Origin: Paraspadella gotoi
Taxonomy: Eukaryota; Animalia; Chaetognatha
Reading direction: 5' to 3'
DNA: 64,000 bases
Assembly: GCA_051294375.1 (NCBI GenBank)
Contig: CM119269.1
Location: 7,359,446-7,423,445, forward strand
Under the pieces are notes generated by a model, which ran no database searches, was not told the origin of the DNA, and saw nothing but the letters and a program-made list of their open reading frames with translations. Positions 1,028 to 61,100 of this stretch are shown piece after piece. Each line of letters begins with the position of its first letter. Position 1 is the first letter of the stretch. The position numbers and the translations under genes were made by a program.

Positions 1028-11938
<10,911 letters not shown>

Positions 11939-14689: not shown

Positions 14690-14853
14690 AAACAGTGAGA
14701 CGGACGGAGGGACATAATTTTTTAAATAATTTATCATAATTAGCTGATTTTACATGATCTTAGTGACTTTCCGACAAGATTTTTGGGTAGGACCGACGAA
14801 CCGACAACGTAAATTAAAGAGCCGGAATCTGCTGTAAACAGAACCGGCTAAAA
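14690..14853 (+). mobile_element. Degenerate 3' part of HINE/DINE-1-like (Helentron-type non-autonomous) repeat
   Basis: gacggacggagggacata...ataatttatcataatt...gaccgacgaaccgacaac...ggaatctgctg...ctaaaaa aligns by eye with the 3' half of the element at 51351-51756. Confidence 0.55.
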
Positions 14854-14918
14854 ATGATGGTGGCGAGCAACAAAAGCAGATGTTTTCATTAATGGAAAAG
14901 GAATTAATCGTTGTCTTT

Positions 14919-17481: not shown

Positions 17482-17533
17482 ATTTAACACCAATCTCTTC
17501 GAGACGTGGGTTCGAATCCCACCGTTGCCACCA
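17482..17533 (+). pseudogene. 5'-truncated tRNA-Leu fragment ending in CCA
   Basis: ccaatctcttcgagacgtgggttcgaatcccaccgttgcca-cca resembles the variable arm, T-arm (B-box GGTTCGAATCCC) and acceptor 3' strand of eukaryotic tRNA-Leu; D-arm and 5' acceptor strand are absent. Confidence 0.7.
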
Positions 17534-31879: not shown

Positions 31880-33990
31880 TCACTGTCGACAGAATCTCCT
31901 GACGGGCTCTTCCAAATGCGGAAAGAGTTCCAACATGTCGAGCAAACTCCCGTAGACGACGTTTTCGTAGCTGAAGGACGGAACGACGACCAGATTGATG
32001 AGAGTGTAGTTCTCCCTGGCGTCGCTACCGTTGTGCTCGGGCGTGCCCGGCTGCGGGAGTCGATAGGGAGTCTCCAGCTCGGCCGCCATCCAACACGAAG
32101 CGGGCACTTTGTGAGTGTACAGCGTCTGAGATTTTAAAAAAAGGGCAAAAGGGTTCAAGTTTCAAACGGGCAACGGAAAATTAATCCCGATTGACAAAAT
32201 CTAATCTCTGGCGAACGTAGTCGGGGTATTTGAAAATTATCGTCCATGTTTATTTACGTAAATGAATAATCGAATGAGTTTAAATTGACAAGGGCGACTT
32301 AGTTTACGACGTCAATTCAAAACAATCGCCCTTACCCGAAAATTAGCGAGCAACAGCCGTCGACTTACCCTTGGATCCTCCATGGTGTTTCCTATGAGAC
32401 GTTGAGAGTAATGGCCCTGGTTGGTGATCTGATGAAGAACGAGATTCGTTCCGCGGAGAAAAGTCCAATGTTCTTCCATGTCAATAATTTTGTGCCAACA
32501 GCTGAACTCTCGACCTTTGAGGAGATACTTGACAGAACTGGAGAGGTCCTGGCCGAGATATTAATATAAATATATATTGGTTGTACCAATTTCATAAATA
32601 TTAGCATAAAATAAATATCGAGCATAATTTTATTCTCGCCGATTGGAATTAGGAGGAGGGGTTAAGGATAGTTTAATGGTGATTTAAGGGTATTTAAGGT
32701 TTATGGAGTTTAAAGTTAATATAGTTAACTATTAATTCATTTTTAATAAAGCCTAATTTGAGTTAATTTTACTTTCGCCGATCGGGGTAAAGGGTAAGGG
32801 TTAAGGGTAATTTAGGGGCGGTTTAAGGTTAAAAGGGTTTTAAGGTTAGAGTAATTAAATATTAATTTTTTTTTTTTTAAATAAATATTTTTAGTTTTTC
32901 AAAAGACGACAACACCTTGGTTGGCGAAAATAAAATTTAACCCAATTTTGTTTACATTATTATGCAAAAAAAGCCAAAAGCTAACTTGGAAAAAATCAAA
33001 TTTTAACTAAATATTAATACAAATATAACTTAATTCAAACAATTTATAATGCTTTGTGAAATTATTAAGTGTAATTACCAGGAAATTAAAATTAATAAGA
33101 AAGCCGTTTTCAATGCTATTAGTGCATCCCTAAAATTAAATATAATCATATACAATTAAAAACCATTAGTGGCCCCACTTATTCTTGAATACTGTGGCGA
33201 ATCCTAAATTCGCCTCCCGTATAGCTTGGTGAAACTCAGCTCATCCCATTCACCAACCTTGAGTTCCGGGTTCAATCCCCTCAGGGTCACGCTGGTTAAA
33301 GTGTGATGGTGTCGGCATAAACAAGCCAGTGGTCACTGCAGGTACAAAGCCCTGAGCGCTAGCTGTAAGGAGATGCCTCACACCCCGGGCATCACACGTC
33401 TCCCCATTTCTATAATACTTCCTTTTATTACCTTAACTTTTGATTGAGGCTGCAAAATCAATTCCGGCTAGGATTGGGTAAAAAAAATTTATCAATTAGA
33501 TTCAAGATTTAGGTTTAATAATTTTTTTTTTATATTTTGATCAACAAAACAATAATATTATTAATAAATTTTTACTTTTATATGTTTTACATTATACAAG
33601 GATTTTAACCTATTTTCTAAATATTTTCCCTTTTTCTTATATCATAAACCATTTTTTAAGTTAATCCCATGGGAGCTAGACCTCCCTGTATTAAATGCTT
33701 AAAATTTTAAACGATACAAAAATACCACTGCTTTTTTACTCTTTTAATTCAGAAATAAAATCCGGTCAGGTAAAATAAGATTAATATTTTGTGTCATAAC
33801 GACATACCAAAATACCAACTCCTAACATGTGACATACCGACTCTCCATGGGCAACGTTGGGTTCCGGATCCGGCTCCATCCATCCGCCTTCCAAAGGGTA
33901 GTATTCCATCTTGAACTTTTGGATAACCACTCCAGCAGGACTATTGTTTTGTATCGACTGAGCCGGGATTTGGGGCTCCAACAAATCCAT
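31880..33990 (-). CDS. Cupin_5 / DUF985 (YML079W/Cff1-like) cupin protein, 3 exons, 192 aa
   Basis: Exons 33990-33838, 32548-32369, 32125-31880, all phase 0 GT-AG. Motifs YPLEGGW (cf. HPEGG), SSSVKYLL, FSCWHKI..EEHWTFLRG, VPASCWMAAE, YTLINLVVVPSFSY, LELFPHL follow the DUF985 pattern. Confidence 0.85.
33193..33410 (+). mobile_element. SINE-like repeat family A, copy 1 (5' hairpin, tRNA-like B-box, twister-like core)
   Basis: Clearly homologous to 36808-37031. Hairpin ggcgaat-cctaa-attcgcc; B-box gggttcaatccc 33268-33279; lies in Cupin_5 intron 1. Confidence 0.8.
33314..33377 (+). ncRNA. Twister ribozyme-like motif (type-P1 order), degenerate
   Basis: P1 GGCA/UGCC, L1 UAA, P2 ACA/UGU, L2 GC, P3 CAGU/ACUG, P4 CAGG/CCUG with loop UACAAAGC followed by A, L1-3' AAGGAGA. 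Deviations: expected general-base G reads A; L4 has AC where CC would pair with GG. Confidence 0.6.
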
Positions 33991-34426
33991 CGTTAATATT
34001 TTTTATTCTGAATTAAAAAATAAATAATACTTACGTTTTAGTTTATACCTTTTTATTATATATATTAAGTATTTTTAAATTTACCCCTTAACTGCTTAAG
34101 CAGTAATTTTTATAATTTAATTTATATTGTGGAATGTCCGCAAATAAGATTAATTTTTTTTTTTCAAAAAAAAAAATTGTCACAATAAATTTCAAAAAGT
34201 AACGCTAATTTTTAACTAAGAGTCGAAGTTTTTAGTCGCAAGAAAGAAACATTTCGGGACTCGACCAACTCGAGAAGAGCAATTAGAGAAAAATAAAAAA
34301 ACCGGTCGAGAGTTAATTACAAAATTTACTATAACGAAATTTTCATCTTTTTTTTTTTATTCCTGCCTTGATTGAGACGCCTAGAGTGAAAAGCTAATTT
34401 AAACAAGAGAGCAACAGATAGAGAGA

Positions 34427-34464
<38 letters not shown>

Positions 34465-34892
34465 TGGACGTATACTAAAACCAGTGGCTGCGCAATATAT
34501 GTAAATCACTTTCAAGGGCTTAAACTGAATTGTTANNNNNNNNNNCTAATCAAAAACACAACAAACTGTAATAAAATTACACAATGTCTACCAATTAAAA
34601 CAAAATTTTTAAAAAAATTTAAAAGATTTAGAATAATAAAATTGGTGGATATACTAAATTAAATTTTATTGCTATTTTATTTTTAAAAATGCTCCTTTGT
34701 TTGTACCGTCCTCCGGTTTATTAAGACTAAAACATGTAAAAATTTGCTATTTGGTGTAAAGCAATGAAAGTGAAGATCTAGCAAATTTCAATAGAAAATA
34801 AAGGGAAAATATGTAAGTATTACTGTTTTTATTAGCAATAAATATTCATATCACTTATCAATCCCAACAGCAACATCAATTAAAACAACAAC

Positions 34893-37438
34893 TCAAAATG
34901 TCGCGGAGGATTTCTCCTCCTTCCAAACGGGATGTCTCGCCCCAAAGACTTGAGAGACGCTTTCGAAGTCGCTCTCTTCTTCGATTCCGTCGTCGATGGA
35001 GTCGTCAACTTCGAGTGGCTCGTCCAGTGGCGTCGAGTCTTGGCCACCGCCGACACCGTCCACTCCACCTCGACCGCCTTCCCCACTTCTCTGCTCAACT
35101 CCATTTCCCGTTTATCTCCATTCTTCTGCTCGTCGTCCGTCTCTTCTCCGCAGCCGCCATTCTCGCTGCTTCGCCGAATCGTGCCGCGGCTGCACCTGCT
35201 GCTTTTCTTTCCGCTGATCTTTTTTTCCAGGAGTCGATGATGTTTCTTGCCTCAGTCGAGTCTTTGGTGATTCTTTGTAATTCTTTCTCATTTGTTCATT
35301 GTTCTGATTTAGGGCCGCTTGCACCAGTTCCTGCCTAAACTGCTTCTCGCCGGAGGCTGACTGCAGTTCTGACTTTTTCTGCAACTCGGACGCTTGCTGC
35401 ATCTCAGACGCTTGCTGCACCTCAGTATCTTGCTGCAAATCCGATCCTTGCTGCGCTCTGGCGACGACCTTTATGGCCAAGGCGAGTCTCTCCTGCCAGG
35501 ACGCCGACGAAGAGACAAACGACGCCGAGACTCGGGGTGCCGACTGAATAAATGACGCCGATTCCCGGGACGCCGAGAATTGTCTAGGGGGCGTCGATTC
35601 ATGAGGTGGGGCCGATTGACGAACCGAAGACAAACCATTCGGCGCCACTGAGGATTGCGGCGTCACTGACGTGAAATCATCCAACGTCGATGCAAAGGCG
35701 CCGCTGGTTGGTGAATCTCTCGACGCCGATGCGACTTCACCGGTTGATGCCGCTTTGGCAGCGCCGGTTGACGCCGCTTCCCTCGTTTTCGGAACGAGAG
35801 TCACGAGACTAGGAAATCCTGGTTTCGCGATGACGCGTTTCGTCTTGACGACGAAATCGGGAGAATCGCTGCGAGGGACGAAGGCGATCTGAATAATTTG
35901 ATTAATTGAATTAAATCATTGATCGATTTATTAATTTCCTTTGATTCATTTGATGAAATGATTGAATGATCCATTGATTATGATTATGATTATGATTATG
36001 TTGGTTTAAATAATTAATGACCTAGGGTTTCAATACGTAGAAAGACACGCCGATTTATTCCTTGATAAATATTATTCCCACCTTCGAGTCTATCTTTCCG
36101 GAGACTTTGAGCTGAGTCTCGTACGACGCAGCTTTCTGTCTTTCGTCATCGTCGACGCTGCGTCGCTGCCGCTGCCGCCGCTTCCCCGGCGTTGGCTCCC
36201 GTCGGTGCAGCTCCGCCTCGGCGCTGCTGTCGAGAGAAGCGGACCGGGTCACGGAACGGAGAGAGACGACGGGCGAGGACGACGCGAGAGAAATTATCGG
36301 CGCTTTGGACAAGCCGGCGTCCTTGATCGGAGTGGACGTTACGATCGAAGCGTCCTCGACGTCGTGTGTCGCAAACGGCGCCGGTCGTTCGTCGGCGTCT
36401 GCTTTGGGCTCCGCTCCGATGGGCGTGGCCTCGTCCTCGATGGGAGCGAAATTCGGCGTCAGGTTTTCCACGAATTCCGAAGAATTTTGCTCTCGATTCG
36501 GCGGCGAGGAGCGCTCCGCCGAGGTCGACGACCCTTTCCGGGATACGAGCGCTTCTCTCGGCGGCGACGAGCGGCTGCGGGAGCTTCTCCGCTCTGTCGG
36601 AAACGCCGTCGTCGACGCTTTGGTTTCGATTTCGGAGCCTAAATGTTTTTCCTGAAAGTTGGGGTTTTGAAATGTCTTTTAAAACAACTTATTATTTCCG
36701 ATCATATTTAACATCGCTATGAGTGTGACATTCGTTCAACCATTATAAAAATTATTCACTCATTCAACAAATTAGCTGTCTAGAAGTAAAAGTATTAAAA
36801 GTAGTAGTGTGGCGAATCCTTAATTTGCCTCCCGTATAGCTTAGTGAAACTCAGCTCGTCCGATTGGCTTGGACAATCCCATCACGGTCACGCTGGTTAA
36901 AATGTGATGGTATCGGCATAAACACGCCACTAACATGAGGTGGTCACTGCAGGTCCAAAGCCCTAAGCACCAGCTGTCGCAATGATGCCTCACACCCCGG
37001 GCATCACACATGCCACTTGCCACTTGCCATTGTAGCACTTTAATCAAACTTCCTTCGCAAGCAATTCCTTTTTTTTTCTTAAATCGTAATTACCCTTTCA
37101 TTTCGCTTCATCCCTAACCCTAAACACAAACTTAGTCTCTACCCTTACACTATCCTAAACTCCGACCTAATCCCTAACCTAATCTAACCTAATCTTTAAC
37201 TCATAAATTGACCATATTTCAAATTTAAGATGGAATGGGCCGTTCTCGGAAAATAAGGCCACCCTTTCCTTACCCTAGCTGCCTTCCCGCTCTGCTCTTC
37301 GATCTTCCCCCGCAGCAGGCGCAGTAGAAACTGCAGCGGATCGTCCGGCGCTGCCTTCAAAAGTTTACACATCATCTCTTCGAAAAGTTGGGTGATGCGG
37401 TGGCGTCGGATGTAGACGGTCGCGTCCTCAACGCCCAT
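34893..37438 (-). CDS. C8orf34/VEST1-like protein with N-terminal RIIa/Dpy-30-type dimerisation-docking domain
   Basis: Exons 37438-37274 (YIRRHRITQLFEEMMCKLLKAAPDDPLQFLLRLL, D/D domain), 36651-36082 and 35888 onward, all phase 0. The frame stops at TAA 35114-35112 but resumes in frame to EEESDFESVSQVFGARHPVW and TGA at 34893, a motif I recall from C8orf34-like proteins. 3' end uncertain. Confidence 0.65.
36808..37031 (+). mobile_element. SINE-like repeat family A, copy 2, with (TGCCACT)n tail
   Basis: Same 5' hairpin and body as 33193-33410; twister-like segment 36915-36989 (ggca taa acac gc ... cagg tccaaagc ccta ... tgt ... tgcc); ends tgccact-tgccact-tgccatt; lies in intron 1 of the C8orf34-like gene. 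Confidence 0.8.
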
Positions 37439-38033
37439 TATCTTTTTTTTTCAAGTTTGTTAATTATGTTTAGTTTTTAAATCTATATGAAAGTGAGTAA
37501 AAAAATAAACAAAATGATACTATGAGAAGCGACTTGTATGGAACTTAAATTTTTTTTAGATTGATGTCATTTTTACTTTTATTTTTTCTTTTAATTAAAA
37601 ATCAGTTAATATTTCTCGTTAGTGTAGTTAGTATAAAAAGTCGCTACTGAGAGATTCTTTCGTTAAATTTAAAAATTTATTCCTCAAAAAAAAAAAAAAA
37701 AATTCAAAAAAGAAATTCCAATGAAATCTCAGAAGGAGCTTATTGCATCGACATCATTGTATCGTCTGAAAAATGTAATAATGAATTTTTTTTTTTCCAA
37801 AACTTAAAAAAATGCAGTAGTACTGTTACGGAACAAACTGTTTGAGAGTTTAAAAGTGGGTGAGCTATTAAAAGCCAAAAATGTAGACTGCCTGTTGACG
37901 GTAAACATCTCCAAATTTTTTTAATAAAATAAATATTTTTTTAAAAAATATATTAGTTTTAATAAAATGATATAATATTAAAACCCTGATGCTGTTGCTG
38001 TTGCTGTTGCTAGGCAGTGGTAGCGCTGAATAC

Positions 38034-38560
38034 TCAGTATCTGTAAGGGTAAAAGTCCGGCCGAGGAGGATTAGTCGCTTGTCCGTTTTTTCTCATTGCT
38101 GCCCACAAACTCCGCATGAGGACGTCCTGTTGCCGGTGTCCAGACTCGACTGGAAAAACAAAAGAACAGCCTCCTCAAAAAAGTAATGTATGAAGAAACT
38201 GGATGAATCATTGAGTTATTAAAATTATTTATTTATTTATTCATTTATTCATTTATTCACCTCTTGACTTTTTATCTCTGTCTCGTGATTTGGTTTTAGA
38301 TGCTCGTGACTCTGCGGCCTTTCGACGCAGCCAACTGAAGTCAATCAATTTTATTGTTTATTACTTTAATTTTATTTTCGATTACTTAATAATAATTTTA
38401 ATTATTTTAATTTTAATAATCGATCTTACTCTCGAAAGGCTCTGTCGCAATCGTCTCTCGAATGAACGATTTGCGAATCTTTTTCTTCTTTTTGACGATA
38501 GCGTTCGATCTCACGTTCGTGGAGCTCCTGTGAGAGAGAGAAAAGAAAGTGAGAGGAGAG

Positions 38561-38635
<75 letters not shown>

Positions 38636-41600: not shown

Positions 41601-42722
41601 TCGACGCCTGCCACTGACGCCGCCCGCTCCACCGCAGCGGCGCCGCGTTGTAAGCGAGCCTGACGTTGACGACGCCGCCGCCGCCGCTTCCGACGCTTCC
41701 GCCGCCGCTGCTGCTGCTACTGCTGCTGTTGGCTGAGGAGTTGAGAGATTGAACCGGAGGATGAGAGTGAGAGATGGCTGCTGCGGGTTGGTGAGGAGGG
41801 GGGGGTTTGTGATCGATTGGTTTGGAGTACGACGACGACGACGGCGACGACGACGATGGCGACGACGAAGACACCGCCAGCGAATTTCTTGGTTCCTTTG
41901 AGTTTTTGACTGAAGTTGAGGAAGGATCGTCGAGCGTCGATTCTGGCGGGAAAGATATTGAATAAGAATAGAATATCTCTCTCTCTATCTCTCTATATCT
42001 CTCTATATCTCTCTATATATCTCTATACTCTTCTCTATATATCTCTCTATCTCTCTATATATCTCTCTATCTCTCTATATATCTCTCTATCTCTCTATAT
42101 ATCTCTCTATCTCTCTATATATCTCTCTATCTCTCTATATATCTCTCTATCTCTCTATATATCTCATCTATCTCTCTATATATCTCTCTATCTCTCTATA
42201 TATCTCTCTATCTCTCTATATATCTCTCTATCTCTCTATATATCTCTCTATCTCTCTATTATACTCTCTCTATCTCTCTATATCTCTCTATATCTCTCTA
42301 TATATCTCTCTATCTCTCTATATACTCTCTCTATATCTCTCTATATATCTCTCTTATCTCTCTATATATCTCTCTTATTCTTTATATATCTCTCTATATT
42401 CTCTCTATATATCTCTACTATCTCTCTATATATCTCTCTATCTCTCTATATATCTCTCTATCTCTCATATATATCTCTCTATCTCTCTATATATCTCTCT
42501 TATCTCTCTATATATCTCTCTATCTCTCTATAATATCTCTCTATCTCTCTATACTCTATCTCTCTATCTCTCTATATATCTCTCTATCTCTCTATATATC
42601 TCTCTATCTCTCTATATCTCTCTCTAATCTCTCTATATCTCTCTCTCTCTCTATATATATGTCCTCTCTCTCTAATCTCTCTCTTCTCTCTCTATATCTC
42701 TCTCTCTCTATATATTCTCTCA

Positions 42723-42787
<65 letters not shown>

Positions 42788-47165: not shown

Positions 47166-50100
47166 ATGGAAACGATCTTCGATCTCGACGACTTTCTCCC
47201 GAATCTGGAAGAAAATCCTTTCGGTTTTGATGTTGAGGTCAACGTGGGTTTCGAGGCGACGAGAGGTCTGTCTGTCAGTCTGTCCCAATTAAAAATGTTT
47301 AAAACTCGGTATGAAGGTGAGGTCATTATGTGTACCCTACTTGTAAAGTCTCTGATCACCTTAAGAAGGTATCACATTACCAAAATTTAATGCAGCTTAA
47401 ATTTGGTTGCTTTTTTTATTTTTGCTGTCACGAATGTAAGAGACTACTAGCGCTACCTTTAGTTTTTTAAAAAAATTGTATGAAGAATAAATTACGATTT
47501 CCAATGCAGTGCGTGTCGAACACGGCGCAACTCAATTCAAAATTCAATCATTGAATAAGAACTTTCGTTTATTAATTATATGTTCTTTCGTTAATTATTA
47601 ATCTATTTAATCTTCTACTCTTTTAAATTATATCCCACCAGATTCTGAGCCCTCTCCGTCCGAAGCCATCAATTCCCCTCATCCTCCTTGAGTCCTCAAC
47701 CTCGATCCCGCTGCAACACCTGGCCGCTGCTGTTGCGGGTCGGCGCGACGGCGGCGGCGGCGGCGGCGGCGGCGCGGAAGACGACAACGGATCCGCGGCG
47801 TCGAAAAGGCGCCGGTTTGGAGCCGGCGTCGTCGTCATCGCGGAGGAAGGAAGCGACGCCGAAGGAGGAAGCAGGGAGGAAGAGGAGGAGGAGGAAGGGT
47901 GGAGGAGAAGAGGGGAGGAAGTCAACGGATTCGGGAGAGGTAAGGAGTTAAGGGTAGAGGGTGGACGAGGTTGGTAGAGGTGGGGGCCTCGGGTTAGAAT
48001 GGAAATAGCCCTAGTGAAAAGTGGTTATGAACAAATTTTGAAAAATGTATTTTTTAGCCTTTTTTACATCTACTGACGAAAATGTCTGGACGACTACTAA
48101 TTTTGATAATCACTTTGTAGACATATGATCACTTTGAATTTACAGGGAGGTCTAGCTCTTTTGAGACGAGTAAATAAAATAATTATTGAATGAAAATTGG
48201 TACACTGAAAAAACGTGTAATGACAACACAATCAATTAAAAAGATTCAAGACCATTGACCATGACCAGAGAAGACTGCACATGCTTTTGGGACTGCGCCC
48301 GATGGGAATGCTATCATTTCTGTCACTATTATTGCTGTCAGAAGGTCGATAGTTCTAGAGGGGATGCGCGACATTGTGCTTCTGTATCCTTAAATTTTCA
48401 TCAATCTGGGGGATTGCAGTCAGAAAAACTACGAGGACAAAAGTCAGGAGTCACCATTAAAGCGTAGTAAAAATTCTACATTTAACTTTAATCAAAATTC
48501 TAAAAGTGTGGAACGAACAACATTATACTAATGAAATTTATGTATAACAAAATATATAATATATATATAAATATATATAATTTTATACTAGTAATAATCC
48601 AATAAATGTTAAAATTTCCATATAGTTTTTTTTTAAGATTTTTTTTTGCAGATTTGGTTTCGTCATGAAAAGTTGTTATAAAGAAATATAACTCTTTTTT
48701 AAAAATTATTTCATTAAGTTTATCAAATATAAAAAAAAACCCTATATTTCAAGCTGAAAATTATATTTTATATATTAAATAAAGTTTTTCTTCATTTTTA
48801 ACCCACTTAATTAAAAAAATTTTAAAAATGATTTATATTTTCTTTTATCAACTTTTGACGAGAAATTCAAATCATTTTGTTGCTGTAAGATCTGGACCTG
48901 CCTGTATTTTGTTTTTAACGCGTTTAATTTTTTTAATAATAAAAATTTCGGTGATTGATAAATTCGCGGCCAAATTAATTTTTATGAAAAAAATATAAGA
49001 AAAGAAAAAGAAAAAGAAAAACCGAAACTGGAAAAGAAAAGAAAAAAAAACAGATTTTGTAAGAAAAGAAGTTGAAAGGTGAAGAAGAAACATGACAGTT
49101 TGAGGAAAAGAAAGAATAGAAATGAAAGGAAACGGGGGAAAAAGTGGCGCGGAAGGATAAAAAAAAAAGAATGAGAATGTTGCATCTGATATTCTATCGA
49201 TTCACTTTTATGCGGACAAAAACGACACAAAAAAATGTAATTTGATCATTTTTTGTGTACGGAGGAAAGAATAAGAAGTCGATTTTGGATTAGATAACTC
49301 TAACTAGTTACGCCGCCAGTACTCGCTATGCAACTCGATTAGTCACTTTTCGGTCGGTCGGTCAGTCGGTAGGTCTTTCTATCCATCGGTCTATTTTAGG
49401 TCTTAAGTCATACTTCATCAATTTAGTTCATATTTGGTAGAAAGGTAAGGTACCATAATACCTTTAATGTGTATAACTATCATACTTGTGATTACCTTAC
49501 AAATCTATCACATGAAATACTGAATATTTTTAATTAATTTGGGGTAGACTCGTAAGGTATCTGAAAATGATTGTTTCATACATGAAACCACGTAAAACTG
49601 TGGTCACGTGACAACAGAGCAAATGAGGCATAATTTGCGTAATATTTGGTAGTTTTAGTGAAAACATTCATATAACGTTTGTTTCACATAACTTTTATAG
49701 TTATGTCTAGTCTCATAATAAGTCGGAAATACACGTGAAAATAAAGTTACTGTGGTGCAACACATTAGAAGGACCATTTATTTTTCCTTTTTTGAAAAAC
49801 GATAGTTTAAAGCGAAATGCTTATTAAGCATTGCTTAATACTTGAGTTAAGAAAAAGGTTTTAGGACTTCCGATACTCGAGGCGACATCTTTTATCTTAT
49901 ATTCGCGAAATTCGCGGGAAAAAAGAGAGAGTTGCTTCGATGCCTTAGAGTGGCGACGATGACGACGACGACAACGGCGACGACGACGAGCCGCTCAGAG
50001 CGACGAAACGTGTCACGAGTCTCTTCTCAAAGCCTTCACTTCTATCACAAGGAGTAAAAACTCACAATTTATTTTCATGAAGGAACCATTTTTTATTTTA

Positions 50101-53100
50101 ATTTCTCTCATTCAATCATATCTGGTTTTCTTTTTTCTTTTTTTTTTATGTAAAATTGTGAAAAATATCCTAACAAAGCTTTTTAGAATTAATTGATTAC
50201 ACGTTAATAGTAATAATAATAATGATAATAATAATAAATAATAATAATAATAATAATAATGTTTGAAAAAAAATCTGATTTTTCTATAGCTTTTTTAACT
50301 TAGTTCTTAGTCAAAATTAATTACAGGATTCCGATTTTTTCCGTCTTTTGTTTCCATTTTTTTATCTCTTGATCTTATCTGCTTCTTGCTTCTGACTTTC
50401 TTATCTTTTTCATATTTTTTTTCTACGTTGTCCAATCATTTCTATCAACCCTTAAAAGTTTTTGTTTTCTTTTTCTTTTTTTAACATTTTTCTTTGTTAT
50501 TTTCTTTCCTCCTTTAGCCTTTAATTTCCTTTCCTCCTTTACACAATTGTTTCCCTTTTCCTTGTCCTTTTCCTTTCTCTCTAATTCCTTTCCTTTCCTT
50601 TCCTTTCTAACCATTTCTCCCGCGGTTATAATCAGATTTGTTGCTTTGAATTTTTTTCCCTTAGACGAATTCACGAGTCAATTCATCATCTTCAATTGTT
50701 ACCGCGCGAAACTGAAAATAAATAAATTTAACTACGTACATTCGTTCGCAGTGTTAAATACAAATGAATCTACATAGGTTTATGTAAATCGAAACACCTT
50801 TGTCCATTGTCGGCATACACCTGTATTAAAAATCAAATCTCATCGCCCTCAAGGTCATTTCGAAATCGAAAAGGAAAAAGACGACGACGACGACGACGAT
50901 TATTTCGTCAAAAAAGGCGACGACGACGAAGAAGAAGAATACGACGATTTCGACGAGGAGTTGGCCGCCTCCATCTTGAGGGAACTGGGCACCGCGCGAA
51001 AGTGAGCGGGGGGGGGCAGGTAAAAAAAGGAGGAACCGTAGGAAGAAGGAAAGGGGAAAGATGGAGAGGGAAGGGGGAGGGTAAGGAGAAAGGAGAAAGG
51101 GAGGAGAAAAGGGTAAGGTAGGATAAAGTTAAAGGATGGTAGGAGGAATGAAAGAAAGGGTAAACACTAAGTGAAAAATGAATGTTCTGTAGTCGGGCAT
51201 TGCTTTAAGTTCACCCGGCCGATAACCATTATGTACCGGGATCGACGAACTTATATACCAAAACTTGACAAAAACTTTCCCAGCTATCAAAGAGAAATTT
51301 ATATAAAAAACTGTCTTATGCCATAAGGTTAGAACGTTATGGTTAGACTTTTTTTAGTCGGATCTGCAAGTAAAAATAAGTTTAAATAGAAAAAACATTT
51401 CCGTAAATCAGATCATATAGTGATTTTTTTCCATTTCAACTCATTTCCACTTGGACCATTCCATCAAAACTTTATATCCAGCTCAATCACACACTTCCCT
51501 AACCACACACAAAATTTCATTCCTATCCATTCATCCAATCATGAGTAAATGGTGTTTTTCGCTAAGGTGGGACGGACAGACAGATAGACGGACGATCGGA
51601 CGGACGTACGGACATCTTTTTTTTGCATAATTTATCATAATTTGATGTTCTGACATGATATAAGTGAATGCCCGATAAGATTTAGGGGGCGGACCGACGG
51701 ACCGACAAAGTGAATTATAGAGTAGGGATCTGCTGATAATCAGATCCGACTAAAAACTTTGAGATAATTTATCAAATAATTTTGATAGAGCTTTCTACTC
51801 AATGAGCTTTTTTGCATTTAACATGAGTAAAACAATTATTGTGAAATATACCCCATGAGCCAAATCAAATGATATAAAATAAACCACTGCCATACTTTAC
51901 TGTATTGAGATAAACTCAATTATATTTTTTTAATTGATAGATAAATCCTTGATGTTTTTATGTATAAATTAGAAAAGTTAGAAATTGAATTCAACGAGAT
52001 TTTTATTTCAATAGATAAACCGACATGTTTCAGCTTTATTCAAGTCTTCATCAGCGTTAACAGTTGATGAATTCAATTTCAAACTTTTCTAATAACATCA
52101 ACACAACGAAAAAGAAAGCAATACGTCACTATGTATAAATTTTATTTTAATTTATAATCATTAACAACTTTACATCTATCGACGTAGAACTGACAAAGAG
52201 CTGACAAATAAACGTAAACTTAGATCGTTACTGGGTAAAAAGGAACGTTTCTGCTTGCGGAATCTTGCCCATCTAAAGTTAAGCATGCAGAAGCAACATT
52301 ACGCTAGGAGCGATTAAGAAAACCATGCAAGATTCTGTTAACAAATATTTGCCATAAAAAAATGATGGTTTTGAATCGCTTGGATTTGCTTTTGATTTAT
52401 GATTGACATAATCGGCATAAGCTGTTAGTAATTTAGATAGACATAAATAAAAAATTAAAATTAGTAAAAACCAATTAGTTTTTGAAAAAAATCTAAAATA
52501 TATGGATTTCCCTTTTAATATAAACATCTGATTAAAGATTGGAAAAAACGAAATGCACAAAAAAAAGAAAAAGTTTTTATTAAAATTAAAACACCCTTCT
52601 GAATCTTTTGGGGATTGTATTATAGCCAGGGCTTCCTTTGTTAACCGTTCAAAACTTTTTTGTCCCCTTATTGCAGTCGCAAAATCTGATTCTAATTTTG
52701 TTGCAGCATATTGAAAAAACCAAAAAACTATGACTGGTATAAAACAGGATATCGCTAAAAGCAAAATTGCAAAGATAGTCTGCTTTCGTTTGTTTAAGAC
52801 TGTTAAAAATATTTTTTTCTGGGCTACTAAGAAAATTAACAAAATTGTCAATGGATAAAAAAAGATCATTAAAGCTTTAGAGGGTTTATTTTCTTGAGAA
52901 TGTAAAAAGGGCATGGCTCCTAGATATAATAAAGATTCTATAGCTAAAATATATTGAAAAAATATTTTTTTCGATATCATTAAAAAGCTCATATCGATAA
53001 CAAAATAACAATATTTCAATAGTAAATATCATAAAAATAGTTTTATCTTGAATGAAAAAAATTGAACTATTTCCCAATACAATATAAATTTTGTTATTAA

Positions 53101-55158
53101 TAAAACAAAAAATGCTTTTTGAAATACAACCTTGAAAATAAGGAATAGTAAATGAAGTTTCCCACGATTTAAAGGAATTATCGCCATTTTTTGTTATGTA
53201 TACATAAGGTAAATATTTATGTTCCCTTTGTTTAGGTTTGTCTTCAGTTTCTCTAATATGATTAAAAACTATATCGTAAGAACTATCATAAGACAAAGTC
53301 ACAGCAAAAATTAACAAATTACAAAAAATCATCAAAAAGTTTTGAATCCAATAACAACTGTTTGCCTTTGGAACATGGTCATTAAATTTGAGAAAAGCTG
53401 AGTTTATGATAAATTTTAATTGGGTTATTGTAAAAACTCTTAGATCAAAATTGGAGTAATAGCGACGATCCAAAATGATATCTTCAATGCGTAAGAAGAA
53501 ATCAAATACAAACACAGAGAAATACCAACCATTCCTTGCAAACAACCAAAGAAGAAGCTGACCCTTTTTTTTTTACCATTCAAATCGGAGGACCTTAGGT
53601 TTGATGATGTCGTGATTAGGGTTATATTTGATAGTAAAAGAGACACAATTGGAAAATATTCCTTAATTCTCCATTCACAGACAAACTTTGACGTATTTAG
53701 AGAGTACCCAATTTTATGACACCAACAGTTTAAGCTTGTATTTTGTAAAGTCTCATTTTCTGCCTGATAATATACCACTCCTTTCACGGGTCTCCGCAAA
53801 TACGTTTGGGATAAAACCTTATCATCAACAAAACATTGCTCATCATTGATAAAAATCATGTTGTACAGAAGTGATGCTGTTTGCAAAAGCATTTGAAGAA
53901 ATGACTCCATCACAACATGAATGATATTTAAAACAAATAAAATGTTTTCTTTATAAATTATCAATTTTTTTGGTACAGTTTCTTTTGTCAATTTTAAATC
54001 ATATAATATCGGCACTGATCCGAGTCCAACACAAAAAAATAACCCGGTTACCAGTTTTTGAAATTGTGTTTTCCATATTTTGAAAAAATGATTTTCATAA
54101 TTTTTCAAAATAACCAATCCATAAAGCAATGATACAAAGTTATGAATTAGCATAACAGCGCAAAATGCTAACCCAAACAAGATTAAAGTGTAATCTTTTG
54201 ATGTTAAATGATCAATTATCGTCTTGAAGTCTGTAACCAAATCTGCAACTCCAAGAATAATCATGAAAACAACATCCTTTGATCCCGAATTCACCATTTT
54301 TGTCAATTAGAGATTTGTAATTCTTTGTATTTTTGTCTTTTATCATTTAATTATTTTTCTCCTTTTACTGTTTCTCTTCTACTTCTTGGTTTATTTTCTA
54401 CTTCTCATTCCCCATAAGAACCGAAATTAAAATGTTGTGTTGCGCCGCAGTGATTTTGTCAGCCCATGTATTTCCGTGTATTTTCGACACCGGACACGTA
54501 CTGCATTGAAATAATATCATTTATTTTTTCTTTTCCTTCCTCCCCTTCTCCTTTTTCTTTATTTTCTTATTAACCTTTTCTTTTTTTTTTCCTTTCCTCC
54601 TACCTCTTTCCAGACGGTAAATGTCAAATCAAAGCCCAAAAGCGACACCTGCGAATAATATGTTAAATGTGATGGCAGAAAATGTTTCAACATACAAAAA
54701 AAAATGACAAAAAAATTAAATATTGTATTATCCCATTTAATCAATTTCACAAATATAGTGTAAAAAGATATAAAATTAATTAAAATAATAAAGAAATTAA
54801 GATTGAGTCAAAAATATTTGATCTGCCCATTGCAGATTCCGGCTTTAGTATTCATTATGTCGGTCTGACGGTCACCTCCCATAGTTTGATCCGTCATTCA
54901 CATCGAAAATTTTACGCAAAAAAAAAACGGTGTCCTTCCGTCAGTCCACTTATCCATATCTCCGTCCGTATGTCCGTCCGTATGTCCGTCCGTCCGTATG
55001 TCCGTCCGTCCGTATGTCCGTCCGACCGTCATATATTATTATGTAGGGCAATTTCGATTACGAAATCGCATCTGGCAAAACGTCGTTGCAGTTTCTGCGC
55101 AAAATGTCAGGTGAATATGTGCGGAGAGTTCGGTGACTGGGCCTTCGTTTAATTAGCT

Positions 55159-55199
<41 letters not shown>

Positions 55200-58100
55200 A
55201 CATGTAGAGTGTAGACTAGTAGAGTGGCAATAAAAGTTAATAATGAGAACAGAGAGACATCAAATTCAAAAGAGCAACAGAGGGCTAAGCCTTGGACCCT
55301 TTCCCCCAAAATGAACTTCAAACGAGTTTTTTTCATATTTTTAGTAGGGGGTTCTCGGAAGCTCACAGCCAGGAGTGATCCAGCTCTGTGATCAGCCAAT
55401 TGAATAGTGAATTAGAATATACAGTTTTTATACACTCCTGTGCAAAAAAACGAGCCACTTTATAACTTTAAATTCCAGACACTTTTTAAAAATAATATTA
55501 AAAATTATATAAAAAAAATGAATGTTTAAATTTTATTATAATCGGTCAAGTGGTTTAAGAGATATGATTTTTTTAATGTGTATTCCAAAATCAGATGGGA
55601 AAACCGTTTTTTATCTAAAAGCTTTAAAATCATAGACCTATCTTTTATTGTATATTTCAATAAGCTTATGATTATTATTTAGGGATCTGGGGCAATCCAG
55701 TTATCCAGCTATCCCTCCGGATGTCCAGTATAATTTTTTTTCATTTTTAATCAACCATAAGGAATATAAAATATTACAAAAAAAGTTAGTCTTAAATCTG
55801 TGGTAGAGTACTTTATTTAAAAAATCGCTGCTCCTAAATAGATGACCCAATTTTAATAAAATTTATGCTAAACTTATTATTCTTCAATAAACTTTAATTT
55901 ACTTTGTTTTTTAAATTTAAGTATATATGATCATTTTTAAAGTCTGAAATAAAGTGGCGCGATTTTTTTGCACATGACTGTATATTTAAGGGAAGATAGC
56001 TCATATATTAAATAAATGGATGATTTTTATATTGGTTGTACCAATTTCATAAAATTCAGCTTCTTATATTAGCGGTGGCCGACCAAATTAAAATTTTAAT
56101 GGGAACAGCATTAAACTAATCCATTATTGGTATTAATTATTTAGTTAAAATATTTTTTTCAAAACTGTTCCGAACCATGAGTAATTCGCTAATTAAAATA
56201 TTTTACATTTTTTTAATAGATTCTGATAGAGCCCAAAAAGTTAAGCAAAAAAATGTAATATAACTTTTTTAAAATTTTAATGTTTTTTTACTGAAAATTA
56301 GTAAAAACTATGAAAATCATCGGATGATAACGATGATGATCTTTTAAGGTTTTTCCCAATTATCATCAAAATATTGAAAAAAGAATTATACTTTGTGTAG
56401 ACAACTTTTCATAAGCTATCTGAATCTGCTTTTAAAAATACAAAATTCAAAAAAATGTTTTGATATTTCCTATCTATAAATAAATAATAAGAAAATAATT
56501 ACTAGCGCTTCTTGCCATTTTAGAAAATTTTGGACCATTGTAATTTTTTTCAGAAATGTCTGGAGTTTCATTTGGGAAGGTTCACAAATCAAACTTCTGA
56601 CCCACCCCAATGACAAAGATTGGCCCTAATTATATTTTGATGCCGCTACGGAGTACAATATAGTATTCCCCGATCTAATACTTAAGGTACATACAATTTC
56701 ATACAATTGAAACATTCTTTGAAATATTATGCTACTTCAATGATTGGGAAGCCAAGCACTCTGGGAGTGAATAAAGGACACAGTGATAGAGTCTCGATTG
56801 AAAGCTTGAAGGGACCTGATATGTCATTACCCTGTAAGACTGATGGAGGCCGATCTGTTCGACGCTGTCATACCCACTCCACCGTCAACATCGGTTCGTC
56901 GCCATATTGCTGAGAAGCCCTTTGGTTTCCCGAAAAATCTCCGCAGCGCCAGAGCCAAAGCTTCGATCGAGAATAGGTGGGAATGAGAGGATCGAAGTCT
57001 GGATAGTTGGGCGTTGCAACGGTCGACGAAGATCGAGAGCATTCGACGTCTGGCGATGTCAATGTTACGTTGCTGCATTTGACCGAATGTAGATGGAGTC
57101 GGGAATGATTTATTTATCGTAATTCCGAGAAAAAAAAAAGGGAAAAATGAAGGTGTTATGGTGAACTAAAATCCACCAACCGTTCATCAGCGGCTATTGG
57201 TGCAGGAAGCAAGTCATTCGCCGGGGTTCTAGCACGGCGGCCGCATAACAGTTGAAGAGGGACCGGGACCGCTTATCCCGTCTGTGACATCCAAAGCTCA
57301 TGAACTGATTGTATTGAACCCTTCTGTCACTAACTCAAAACAAGGATTTCTGTCTCTTTAGTGGTTTGATAGATCACGTGACTTCTAAGAACAATTTTTC
57401 TGGGTCACGACTAAAGGAACTTTAGTAAAGGAGTCTTGCTTAACTATATATAGCCAGGAATATTTTATAATTTTATGTAAACACAAATTAATCAAAACCC
57501 TTCTTGCCCCCCCCCTCCACACTCTTGCCCCCCAAAACAAAGCGCCCGCAAGAATCCGTGGGGTTCCCTTTCCTACGCGGACCTCATCACACGCGCCATC
57601 TCATCCTCAACCGAGCGACGACTTACCCTCGCGCAGATCTACAAGTGGGTCGTCAGATACGTCCCTTTCTTCCGGGACAAGGCCGGGGCCAACGAGTCCG
57701 CCGGCTGGAAGGTGAGTTGCGGAAAATATTTAGTTGGGAAGAGGGTAAAGTTGGAGAGCTGAAAGTGAGTTACGTGAAAGAGAGAACCTACATTTTTTCT
57801 CTGACTTACATGGTGACAATTTTACAAGCGCCGGTAAAAAAAAGGCTGTCATTTGCAAACCAGTGGTTAGTTCATTGATTCATTTTCTTACTCACTTTTT
57901 TATATTTAATTTTTTTTCTTACTTTCAGTAAGTTTTCTGAAGAAATTTGAAATAGAATAATATTAATTATATTATCTTCTGAAAGCCCTTTCAAATCTAA
58001 AGAGAATAACATACTTGCAAATACTGTAGTATAAAATTTAACCGGCCCAGCTTAAATTTAATTAGGATACTCAAAAATAATACATCTTTCCAAAAATCAA

Positions 58101-61100
58101 TAGCTGGAGGGTAAATTTAAGATTTTTATCAAATTGTGATTAGCTATCTTAAATCTATTTTTTCAGGCTCTTTCATGATACTTATATAAATAATAATATT
58201 TTATGTTATAATAATTTAAACAGGTCATATATTTTAAAAAAGATTTGAAATTTTAGATAATTAACTTTTGACTCTCTTAATTGAACCAAGGCTGGGCCGC
58301 TTAATTTTTATGTTGGAACAAAAAATATAGATCGCCCTTTTGAGCTGGTAGTTAGGCCTCATACTCTAAGTAATCATGCATCCTCATTTCAATCAGCTCT
58401 CTCACAGTCTCGTTATTCATCAGGTACTGCTTCCTATCGAGGAAATATTAAGATTTAGAGTTTGTAAGTATATGCTTTAATTCTAGATATTAATATTAAT
58501 ACTTAATAAATACTTTGTTTAAAAAAGAGCTAAAAGTTGAAAAAAAAATCTAATTTAAAAACAGTGAGTTGGAAAATGAAACCCGATTTTACAAGCCAAC
58601 TTTCTCCACTCATTGCCAAGGCATATCTTAACTGATCAATATAAAATTTGAACACATAAATGACTTTAATATATTCTACTAAACTAATTTTTAAAATCAA
58701 TTAAATAACCACTGGTTTGCAAATGACAGCGTATTTCTACCGGCGCTTGTAAAATTGTCACCATGTGTATTGGATAGTCATTTCCAGCTTTTTAAAGCTT
58801 TCAAAAATAGGAAGGAAAATAATAAAATCGGATTTGCATCATTATTACTGATGTTTCTTAATACCATTTTCTCCCTATTTTTATATGTGTATGTTTCGAA
58901 GCCTTTAAAGGCCTTTCTATAACCTTTATCTCATTCAATCTCGATTCTACCGTAATACAAACGTTTTGAATAGCTTCAAATTTATCAAAAAAATCACGAT
59001 TTAAAATTGTCATTCAGCGGTCATTGCACTTAAACAACTTCCAACACCGCACTATGCAAATTAAATTAAAGAGAAAACAATCTCTCTCGACTCAGAATTC
59101 TATCCGGCACAACCTCTCACTCCACTCCCGCTTCGTTCGCTGCCCGAGCGAGGGCGCTGGGAAATCCTCCTGGTGGACGATCGATCCGACGGCACCGACG
59201 ACGAAGACGCCGCGCCGCCGCGCCGCCACGGCAGATGCCGATTCCATCGCCGAGAAGAGGGCGAAAGTGAAAAGGAAGGTAAGGTCAAGGAACGATTTAA
59301 TGATAAATGAATTAATGAATGAATAAATGAATTAATGAATAAATGAATGAATGAAGAATAGAGAAATGAATTTATGAATGACCGAATAAATGAAAATAAG
59401 CGCATGAACTAATAAATGAATGGATGAATTAACGAATAAACTGAGCAGTGGAAAAAATGAATATAACCGAATGAAAATATTTTGATCGATTAATTATTTT
59501 AATAAAAGAGTGGATGAATAAAATGAGTAAACAAATAAATAAAATTTTCTCACGCCAGGTGGACGCGCTTCGTCGACGAAACGCTTCCGGCTCCAACCCC
59601 TCCCCTGACCCTTCCGGACCGCGTTGGCACCCTCCGCCCCATCCGCCCCCTCCCTCTCTTAACTTGACGATGAACTCTTCCCCTCCTCGCGGCGCCGAAA
59701 CTGAACCGCGCCGCGATTCCGATTCCGTAGTAACGGCGCCGAAACTAGAAAATCCGGCGCCGGATGATATTTCCTTCCTCGCGTCCTCGGTCTTCGAATC
59801 CGCGTCTGCTCGGCCGGCGTCGGAAATCGGCGTTCGGCCACGCCCACTCACGCTGTCCCTCGATCGTCCCGCGATCGACCGTCATCGGACCTTGATCGCT
59901 TCCTCCGACCTACGCTGCCCGACACGAACGTCCTCTGCCCGAACTTCCAGCCCGCCCTCCGACCGACGAAACCTCGCCGACGCCGCGTTCGATCCTCTTA
60001 CCGACATTTCCATGGCCGACACGCCGACGACGTCGATCGCGTGGCCCCGCCTCCTCTCCTCCAACGTTAGACTTATTCCTTTGAGTCACGAAGGGAATTT
60101 TCAAAATCTCTCTTCCGCGGGTGAAATTAAGATGGGGGCCGGCTGGGGGAGGGGGGGTTTAAGTTTAGTTTGTAAATTAATCTATTAGTTTTTAAAGAGA
60201 TCGTATGGTGGACTAAAATCCACCAACCGTTCGTCAGCGGCCATTGGTGCCGGAGGCAAGTCATTCGCCTCCCAACCCAAAGGTCCGGGGTTCTCGCCCG
60301 GTGGTCGTCTGGCAGTTAAGAGGTACGGGGCGCTTAATCCGCCTGTAACACGGTGTTACAGCCTGATCCGAAGCTCAGGGACTGTCATTAACCATATGAA
60401 TAGTTACTGTCTCTTCAATCGTTTTGTCTCTGTTTTCTATTCTTTCTAAAACGCTTTAGAAAAATGTAACAACAATTCAAGGTGAGACAAAACAATAATA
60501 AACGACTCAAGGTCAGTTGAGTTGGGTCAAATAAGTTGACCCACGGAACGGTAAAGTGTTGAGTTTTCGTCGCCGTCGTCGTTGTTGTTGTAGTTGCCAT
60601 GTTCAGCTACAATTCTTTTAGATTCCTGATACATTTACATAATACAACCTGTATGCATAGAGTTTTGTGTTTACATACAGATATTGATCTGGCGCTTTCA
60701 CATCTTGAGGCCTCTCTAGCAGCCATTGAACGTGTTCTGAGCTTAGGGGATGGTCGCTACAGCCCCTAGGCGGTTTACTGCCCTCGTATTGAACCCGGTA
60801 ACCAGTGGTCAGGAGCCTCAAGAAGCCACCAGATAACGATAAGGGATCTGTTGGCATTGTGAATTCCCGCTAGATATTGTACAATACAAATGTCTAATAT
60901 TATACTGTTACTATCTCAGCCAAAACCTCCAGCGAGACCAGACCCAGTACTTCCAACACGCCGTCCGAAGGAGAAAGAAGAGAACACGGACCTCCACCTG
61001 ACCATTCGAATTTCCATGACAACGAGAAAAAGGTTGTTTCTTCGTCTATTATACAATCATAATTTTTTTTATTATTATTTTTTTATCATTATTTTTTATT

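What the first reader, a model, noticed from the sequence alone, without database searches (positions are those of the whole stretch)
33193..60415. Shared modular layout across sequence-divergent repeats: 5' hairpin + CCGT, tRNA head, twister-like domain
Seen: families A and B are not alignable in their bodies, yet both begin with an equivalent hairpin upstream of the tRNA-like part (tg-GCGAAT-cctaa-ATTCGC-ctcCCGT vs tg-GTGGA-ctaaaa-TCCAC-caaCCGT; different stems, similar loop and CCGT) and both place a twister-like core after it. Typical SINEs start at the tRNA 5' end. Inference: a class of ribozyme-bearing short retroelements in which self-cleavage could process multimeric or read-through transcripts or yield circular RNAs, with the 5' hairpin as a recognition signal for an autonomous partner. 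I do not know of a description of this layout, but cannot search.
Basis: inference. Interest (0 to 1): 0.75.

Follow-up and report, generated by a model that had tools for sequence, protein, structure and literature searches.

The report
Twister ribozyme in tRNA-promoter solo LTRs
Two abundant short repeats in this animal genome share a left-end hairpin, a tRNA-like segment and a twister-type RNA fold, and sit in four-base target duplications, so they are likely leftover end-pieces (solo LTRs) of a tiny non-coding retrotransposon whose RNA is predicted to cut itself and would then be closed into a circle for copying.

Summary
The shared layout is real. Families A (33193-33414, 36808-37031) and B (57157-57360, 60204-60417) are high-copy repeats with sharp left ends. 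The 7-bp left-end hairpin and CCGT are conserved within each family, and the stem covaries between families. Both carry a type-P5 twister fold: 3 descriptor hits, all in these copies, against 1 hit in 200 shuffled windows. Family-majority letters pair where window copies are broken.

They are probably not SINEs. Three of four copies have exact 4-bp target duplications and the fourth matches 3 of 4. The least-deleted A and B copies align end to end. This fits solo LTRs of Helenus-type mini-retrotransposons (tRNA-box LTRs, 4-bp duplications; PMC10886601), with the hairpin as the left end of U3. Similar hairpins open many published wasp Helenus LTRs (read by eye).

The new part is the twister, likely making this an animal LTR retrozyme; nine literature searches found no such report. 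I found no full-length copy, primer site or autonomous partner. Cleavage, transcription and circles are untested. Unreviewed notes from this scan already reported the same class, including full-length copies, on other pieces of this genome.

The parts
33193..33414 (+). Family A copy A1, likely solo LTR (222 bp); lacks about 24 nt of the tRNA-like part and 10 nt of P3 relative to most family copies
   Evidence: flanked by ATAC on both sides
33196..33220 (+). Left-end (U3) 7-bp hairpin plus CCGT box of A1
   Evidence: no variant at 5% or more listed
33235..33290 (+). tRNA-like segment of A1: A-box-like CCATT at 33246-33250 (a second candidate A-box at 33222), canonical B-box at 33269; 5' limit inferred
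   Evidence: not recognised by ARAGORN or Rfam
33291..33363 (+). Type-P5 twister fold of A1; predicted cut between 33318 and 33319; P1 region 33310-33317 is self-complementary
36808..37031 (+). Family A copy A2, likely solo LTR (224 bp); B-box region deleted, twister fold present (predicted cut 36919/36920)
   Evidence: flanked by GTAG on both sides
57157..57360 (+). Family B copy B1, likely solo LTR (204 bp); hairpin has one mismatch, twister broken by a deletion in P3/P4
   Evidence: flanks GTGT/GTGG
60204..60417 (+). Family B copy B2, likely solo LTR (214 bp); lacks part of the 3' region after 60384
   Evidence: flanked by ATCG on both sides
60206..60230 (+). Left-end (U3) 7-bp hairpin plus CCGT box of B2
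   Evidence: no variant at 15% or more listed
60230..60310 (+). tRNA-like segment of B2: CCATTGG at 60241, GGTTC B-box core at 60289; both boxes degenerate
60312..60385 (+). Type-P5 twister fold of B2; predicted cut 60335/60336; this copy departs from the family at the general-base position 60324; P1 region 60329-60334 is self-complementary
62259..62324 (-). 3' fragment of family B, right end followed by ATAT
   Evidence: nhmmer E=3.5e-08

Best explanation
A and B are high-copy repeats with a left-end hairpin, a tRNA-like segment, a type-P5 twister fold and 4-bp target duplications, and are likely solo LTRs of two related Helenus-type mini-retrotransposons whose twisters are predicted to cut the element RNA to unit length, which would be circularised and copied by a likely Gypsy-type helper. 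SHOWN: layout, abundance, fixed left ends, duplications, base-pairing pattern, no run of four T in any copy. INFERRED, step by step: (1) RNA polymerase III starts at the tRNA-derived boxes in the 5' LTR. (2) With no T-run terminator it reads through the internal region and the 3' LTR, and the twister replaces the terminator as the end-forming device. (3) Both twisters cut at U/A, leaving a monomer with no terminal repeat. (4) Because the permutation is P5, each end of the monomer carries half a ribozyme; the halves can re-pair through P5, P2 and T1 (13 pairs in A, 10 in B) and bring the 5'-OH and cyclic-phosphate ends together for an RtcB-type ligase. (5) A tRNA-primed helper reverse transcriptase copies the circle and rebuilds U3, hairpin included, and integrase inserts it with a 4-bp duplication. 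(6) Solo LTRs arise by LTR-LTR recombination or from short cDNAs. The hairpin is transcribed only in the 3' LTR, next to the expected polypurine tract, and likely serves the helper's machinery there (plus-strand priming boundary or packaging) rather than the ribozyme.
For: Target duplications 4/4, 4/4, 3/4, 4/4; chance about 3e-7 with fixed ends, 3e-4 with 2 nt slack. Left ends fall at one position in 73 and 81 contigs (A; runs X1, X4) and 138 and 149 contigs (B), with unrelated flanks (agreement about 0.4) ending in an ATAT-like consensus; AT-rich ATAT/ATTT also follows A's right end. Twister descriptor: 3 hits in the window, all in A1, A2, B2; 1 hit in 200 shuffled windows; 0 of 2000 shuffles per copy. 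With family-majority letters A pairs 6/6 (P5), 4/4 (P2), 3/3 (T1), 2/2 (T2), 4/4 (P4), and B 5/5, 2/3, 3/3, 2/2, 5/5; the UAA, GA and loop-4 residues are present in both. A versus B shows two-sided changes in T1 (1), P4 (2) and the hairpin (2). Chance matches to a similar sequence pattern reach at most 8 of 11 pairs (0 of 55 metagenome hits reach 9). P1 is dispensable and P2 flaws are tolerated in natural twisters (PMC5408937, PMC11662667, passages). Animal Helenus have tRNA-box LTRs, 4-bp duplications and Gypsy-like primer sites. Two published Helenus LTRs hold a hammerhead motif behind the tRNA part. Plant LTR retrozymes give the no-R-region, circular-template precedent; RtcB closes animal retrozyme RNAs. 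Weak hint of a polypurine tract: purine-rich consensus before 60203 in 50 contigs of X4, agreement 0.41.
Against: No two-LTR copy, primer-binding site or clear polypurine tract in my own calls; no whole genome was held. No reverse transcriptase or integrase family in 115 window ORFs scanned. Rfam does not call either twister at a meaningful score and lists no type-P5 match. The descriptor was written after seeing the copies, so its shuffle test overstates independence. B's P2 has only 2 standard pairs and its A- and B-boxes are degenerate. Termini are TG..TA and TA..CA, not TG..CA, though both variants occur among published Helenus LTRs. Only 1 of 4 A-B pairings aligns significantly. Covariation rests on two lineages. 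The hairpin's role has no direct evidence.
Confidence: 0.58

Rival explanations
1. Same solo-LTR identity and an active twister, but a linear route: only the 3' LTR ribozyme cuts efficiently, standing in for a terminator, so the RNA keeps a terminal repeat from the start site to the cut and is copied by ordinary strand transfer, with no circle.
For: No run of four T in any copy, whereas most published animal Helenus LTRs have a T-run after the tRNA part (by eye). A1 holds a perfect 8-nt complement (33390-33397) to the strand bearing the catalytic G (33301-33308), which could damp cutting.
Against: The two LTRs are identical in sequence, so selective cutting needs a context effect that I could not show; the 8-nt complement could be chance and has no clear counterpart in B.
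Confidence: 0.2
2. One reading: tRNA-headed SINE-like or non-LTR retrozyme, like the schistosome promoter-plus-hammerhead repeats, moved by target-primed reverse transcription from tandem or read-through transcripts.
For: All four window copies are single units; a promoter followed by a ribozyme is the schistosome layout (PMC6765202, passages); A2 ends in a short repeated motif.
Against: Uniform 4-bp duplications; animal non-LTR retrozymes have larger ones and occur in tandem (PMC7229834, PMC4918200). No head-to-tail joint among the joints shown (15 of 42 for A, 15 of 46 for B). About 25-40 nt lie upstream of the likely start site and need an LTR-type mechanism to be regenerated.
Confidence: 0.08
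3. Helenus-type solo LTRs whose twister is a captured relic that no longer cuts.
For: Every window copy has at least one defect in the fold; no activity data.
Against: Family-majority letters keep all catalytic residues and both pseudoknots in two lineages that barely align otherwise, with two-sided changes.
Confidence: 0.09
4. Non-autonomous DNA transposon with an integrase-like transposase giving 4-bp duplications (Ginger or Sola type; family features recalled, not tested).
For: 4-bp duplications; A has an imperfect 8-nt terminal inverted repeat.
Against: B has no terminal inverted repeat beyond 2 nt; a promoter and ribozyme imply an RNA stage.
Confidence: 0.05

Closest known systems
Helenus TRIMs (TRIMp3), Kojima 2024, PMC10886601 (main text parts 1-4 of 6; supplement parts 1 and 5-9 of 11; two motif searches of the whole supplement)
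   Same: Short non-coding LTR with U3 upstream of a tRNA-derived A/B-box segment; 4-bp duplications in animals; solo LTRs; by eye, many wasp Helenus LTRs open with a 5-7 bp hairpin near the left end, and TA-start and TA-end LTRs occur.
   Different: The paper reports no ribozyme ('twister' 0, 'ribozyme' once, in a reference title). Seven short twister loop-4 motifs gave 3 hits in the supplement, none in a twister context (line breaks can hide motifs). A and B have a twister after the tRNA part and no T-run. Primer site and polypurine tract not shown here.
Helenus-2_SyJa and Helenus-2_SyUm LTRs (gall wasps; same supplement, part 9)
   Same: Left-end hairpin, tRNA-like part, then a ribozyme motif, and no T4 run after it (by eye).
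   Different: The motif is a hammerhead, not a twister, and the text parts I read do not mention it.
Plant LTR retrozymes, PMC4918200 (passages)
   Same: Non-coding, ribozyme in each LTR, 4-bp duplications, solo LTRs, proposed circular template for a Gypsy helper.
   Different: Plants, type III hammerhead, LTRs of 300-400 bp, no tRNA-derived promoter described in the passages read.
Type-P5 twister ribozyme (PMC5408937, PMC11662667, passages)
   Same: P2, P4, T1, T2, optional P3 and P5, conserved loop residues, ends in P5.
   Different: P1 reduced to 2 bp or less and self-complementary; B's P2 shortened; not recognised by the Rfam P5 model in my scans.
Schistosome promoter-plus-hammerhead SINE-like repeats and animal non-LTR retrozymes (PMC6765202, PMC7229834, passages); twister variants in schistosome non-LTR elements (PMC8501958, abstract start and three passages)
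   Same: Ribozyme inside a short animal repeat; Pol III promoter before a ribozyme (schistosome repeats).
   Different: Tandem arrays or LINE 5' ends, hammerhead in the short repeats, no LTR features.

Membership tests
Helenus (TRIMp3) | tRNA-derived A- and B-box motifs inside the LTR | tested here: inconclusive
   GGTTC core in A1, B1, B2; canonical B-box in A1; A-box partial, weaker in B; no ARAGORN or Rfam tRNA call
Helenus (TRIMp3) | 4-bp target duplication (animal families) | tested here: met
   4/4, 4/4, 3/4, 4/4
Helenus (TRIMp3) | LTR-type termini at fixed positions | tested here: met
   fixed left ends; TG..TA and TA..CA, variants also seen in published Helenus
Helenus (TRIMp3) | Two LTRs flanking a primer-binding site and polypurine tract, under about 1.3 kb | tested here: inconclusive
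   only single units in the window; weak purine-rich consensus before a subset of B copies; no genome held; reported for this genome only in unreviewed notes
Helenus (TRIMp3) | Non-coding | tested here: met
   copies are 204-224 bp; no mobile-element Pfam family in 115 window ORFs
Twister ribozyme, type P5 | P2, P4, pseudoknots T1 and T2, conserved L1 and L4 residues, termini in P5 | tested here: met
   pair tables and descriptor test; B's P2 has 2 of 3 pairs
Twister ribozyme, type P5 | Score above the Rfam gathering threshold | tested here: not met
   best 18.3 bits to twister-P1 against 67.2; no P5 match listed; only decayed copies could be scanned
Twister ribozyme, type P5 | Site-specific self-cleavage | not testable with these tools
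   needs an in vitro assay
LTR retrozyme | Ribozyme fold inside an LTR with 4-bp duplications | tested here: met
   twister rather than hammerhead
LTR retrozyme | Circular unit-length RNA | not testable with these tools
   only assembled contigs were available
tRNA-derived SINE | Element starts at the tRNA-like head | tested here: not met
   fixed left end lies about 25-40 nt upstream of the inferred tRNA start
tRNA-derived SINE | Variable, usually longer target duplications and an A-rich or simple-repeat tail | tested here: not met
   uniform 4 bp and defined right ends; only A2 shows a short repeat

The most novel reading that the evidence does not exclude
An animal class of LTR retrozymes driven by RNA polymerase III, in which a P5-permuted twister with a vestigial, self-complementary P1 both ends the transcript and, split across the two ends of the monomer, holds them together for circularisation; the two LTR ribozymes may also swap P1 strands so that cutting is coupled. 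With the hammerhead-bearing gall-wasp Helenus, this would mean tRNA-promoter LTR elements recruited ribozymes at least twice, in place of a terminator.
Probability: 0.4. Interest if true: 0.78.

Novelty: new variant of a known kind. Interest (0 to 1): 0.6.

Why it matters
Twister ribozymes are abundant in animal genomes with few assigned roles, and LTR retrozymes are described from plants with hammerheads. A twister kept intact in the LTRs of two diverged, very abundant animal families gives a concrete, testable role: forming RNA ends and circles for retrotransposition. It also joins two designs described separately (Pol III-driven TRIMs and retrozymes) and warns that such solo LTRs are easily misfiled as tRNA SINEs. 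The 5' hairpin itself, the focus of this finding, is probably the least novel part.

Tried and rejected
No whole genome is held, so no genome-wide survey. Exact 25-nt family B motif: 0 hits in metagenome and viral contigs. B-box plus twister patterns: 10 viral hits, none with a twister core; 55 metagenome hits, 0 with 9 or more of 11 pairs; so no relatives found outside this organism in those collections. Sequencing runs: no RNA holder listed; run X9 is only guessed to be RNA and was not used as expression evidence. Summed contig depth (A 1.2-3.9e5 and B 0.65-2.3e6 against flanks of about 80-110 in X1) shows high abundance but is not a copy number. Rfam scans of tight twister regions added nothing. 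Homolog search of the XK-like ORF to place the organism: no hit. Splice-signal counts did not resolve gene orientation; an early idea that all copies lie antisense to host genes was dropped because Forkhead exons beside B1 and B2 are on the + strand. Pairing of B's CCGT box with the T1 strand was considered and dropped: by rough estimate such a match is expected by chance. The loop as a TATA-like site was dropped because its distance to the A-box-like motif differs by about 12 nt between A and B. Obligatory dimer cleavage was not adopted: P1 regions are fully self-complementary (14 of 836 8-mers and 38 of 844 6-mers in the copies are; duplex -9.5 and -8.3 kcal/mol), but P1 is dispensable in tested twisters. 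Look-ups of earlier findings by sequence, by hairpin words and near this place returned nothing.
Full report
Setting. The window is microsatellite-rich animal DNA with exons of cadherin, XK-related, cupin, DUF5586 and Forkhead genes. No whole genome is held. An unreviewed note suggests an arrow worm; I did not test this. Self-comparison finds two copies of family A (78% identical) and two of family B (74%), plus a 3' fragment of B on the minus strand.

Abundance and ends. Laying contigs of four public runs of the same organism on A1 and B2 gives summed depth three to four orders of magnitude above the flanks; the tool warns this is no copy number. Left ends are sharp: 33193 for A (73, 81, 38, 16 contigs in X1, X4, X5, X9) and 60204 for B (138, 149, 60, 26). 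What lies before is unrelated between contigs (agreement about 0.4) but tends to end in ATAT; a similar 4-mer follows A's right end. With right ends set from the family tail, the four copies have flanking 4-mers ATAC/ATAC, GTAG/GTAG, GTGT/GTGG and ATCG/ATCG (one search had A1's end one base short). Chance is about 3e-7 with fixed ends and 3e-4 allowing 2 nt of slack. Termini are TG..TA in A and TA..CA in B. This is what an integrase leaves, not target-primed insertion (established knowledge; PMC10886601).

The 5' hairpin and CCGT. Both hairpins have 7 bp and start 3-4 nt from the left end. They fold with high probability in A1 and B2, less in A2 and hardly in B1; z-scores for the first 44-53 nt are -2.5, -1.5, -1.4 and -2.7. 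No variant is listed in this region in the laid contigs (thresholds 5% and 15%). The two hairpins are alignable, and two of six shared pairs change on both sides, which favours selection on structure but rests on two lineages. In an LTR this stretch is U3: upstream of the start site in the 5' LTR, transcribed only in the 3' LTR beside the polypurine tract. Reading the Helenus supplement by eye, many wasp LTRs open with a similar short hairpin whether or not they carry a ribozyme (for example Helenus-2_NVit, 2_CeFu, 4_MusRap, 1_SyJa, 3_NVit); I could not count this by script. A review of LTR structure notes stem-loops around the polypurine tract and 5' U3 in other elements and calls for a systematic search (PMC3601003, passages). 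CCGT itself has no demonstrated role; it lies about 8 nt closer to the next conserved block in A than in B in one alignment and further away in another reading.

Are A and B unrelated? Probably not. A1 and B2 align colinearly from end to end (score reached by 1 of 500 shuffles; 3 of 500 without the first 30 nt). The other three pairings are not significant, which fits the large deletions in A2 and B1 but is also a limit on the claim.

tRNA-like segment. Neither ARAGORN nor Rfam calls a tRNA. A1 has a canonical B-box; B has the GGTTC core only. A CCATTGG motif sits 43-44 nt before the B-box T in both families once A's common insertion is counted and is the best A-box candidate; A has a second candidate at 33222. 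B2 folds into a cloverleaf-like domain. Promoter function is inferred.

Twister. Both families fit type P5: P5, a UAA(A/G) linker, the P2 3' strand, GA, the T1 strand, a tiny P1, UAA, P2, GC, P3, P4 with its conserved loop, and the P5 3' strand. Window copies are decayed: A1 departs from its family at 33324 (P2), 33344 (T1) and 33360 (P5), B2 at 60324 (general base) and 60338 (P2); at each of these the family-majority letter pairs or matches the conserved residue. A and B differ on both sides of one T1 pair and two P4 pairs. A descriptor finds 3 hits in the window, all in these copies, against 1 in 200 shuffles; it was written after seeing the copies. Rfam support is weak (18.3 bits against 67.2; nothing for A2 or B2). 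Short P1 and imperfect P2 do not argue against activity (PMC5408937 and PMC11662667, passages). The P1 regions differ between families yet both are fully self-complementary, recalling dimeric hammerheads of Penelope elements; dimer cleavage is possible but not required.

Mechanism. None of the four copies has a run of four T, unlike most animal Helenus LTRs seen in the supplement (by eye). The two gall-wasp Helenus LTRs that hold a hammerhead motif also lack it after the ribozyme. I infer that the ribozyme replaces the terminator. Cutting at the same site in both LTRs removes the terminal repeat, the situation for which a circular template was proposed in plant retrozymes (PMC4918200, passages). 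The P5 permutation leaves complementary halves on the two ends of the monomer, which would favour closure by an RtcB-type ligase as shown for animal hammerhead retrozymes (PMC7229834, passages). All of this is inference. I found no two-LTR copy, no primer site, only a weak purine-rich consensus before a subset of B copies, and no reverse transcriptase or integrase among 115 ORFs of 70 aa or more that passed a complexity filter.

Comparison with print. Helenus (PMC10886601) covers the tRNA-in-LTR layout and 4-bp duplications without a ribozyme. Nine searches returned no paper placing a twister in an LTR element; the library lacks most subscription journals, and I did not read supplement parts 2-4, 10 and 11 of the Helenus paper or the supplements of the twister surveys, where such sequences may lie unannotated. 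A review mentions truncated twisters at RTE 5' ends (PMC7761336, passages), and PMC8501958 describes twister variants in schistosome non-LTR elements (listing and three passages).

Earlier notes. I had written the solo-LTR reading before the first look-up. The notes then supplied the Helenus paper and the gall-wasp lead, both checked here, and report full-length elements of about 640-750 bp elsewhere in this genome, which I could not check and do not count as evidence.

Verdict. Real feature; likely solo LTRs of Helenus-type elements working like LTR retrozymes with a twister; new variant of a known kind; interest 0.6.

Noticed in passing
window 17490-17533 (+): 3' half of a tRNA-like sequence ending in CCA, after a short tandem array; either a tRNA retrocopy or an extended primer-binding site on the minus strand.
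   Followed up: no
window 33390-33397 and 33301-33308: Perfect 8-nt complement in A1's 3' region to the strand carrying the catalytic G; a possible off-switch, competing with a 7-bp hairpin; could be chance.
   Followed up: partly
window 57157-60417: B1 and B2 lie on the same strand as neighbouring Forkhead exons and both have broken catalytic cores, whereas A1 and A2 lie opposite minus-strand exons; fits selection against cutting host RNA but n=4.
   Followed up: no
PMC10886601 supplement part 9, Helenus-2_SyJa and Helenus-2_SyUm LTRs: Hammerhead motif behind the tRNA-like part, not mentioned in the text parts read.
   Followed up: partly
window 1029-6227 and 6329-11937: Large inverted duplication of about 5 kb at 85-89% identity; old duplication or assembly artefact.
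   Followed up: no
window 57808-57880 and 58695-58766; 48651-48873: 73-bp inverted repeat pair about 900 bp apart inside the Forkhead gene region, and a 220-bp palindrome; likely DNA-transposon remnants.
   Followed up: no
window 14699-14854 and 51599-51756: A further dispersed repeat family, 79% identical, without the twister descriptor.
   Followed up: no
window 52279-54306 (-): Long AT-rich, apparently intron-poor XK-related reading frames with no homolog at E 0.001.
   Followed up: partly
run X9, record 31 laid on window 33331-33415: A 1374-nt contig with depth 1053 holds a rearranged family A piece; the run type is only a guess.
   Followed up: no
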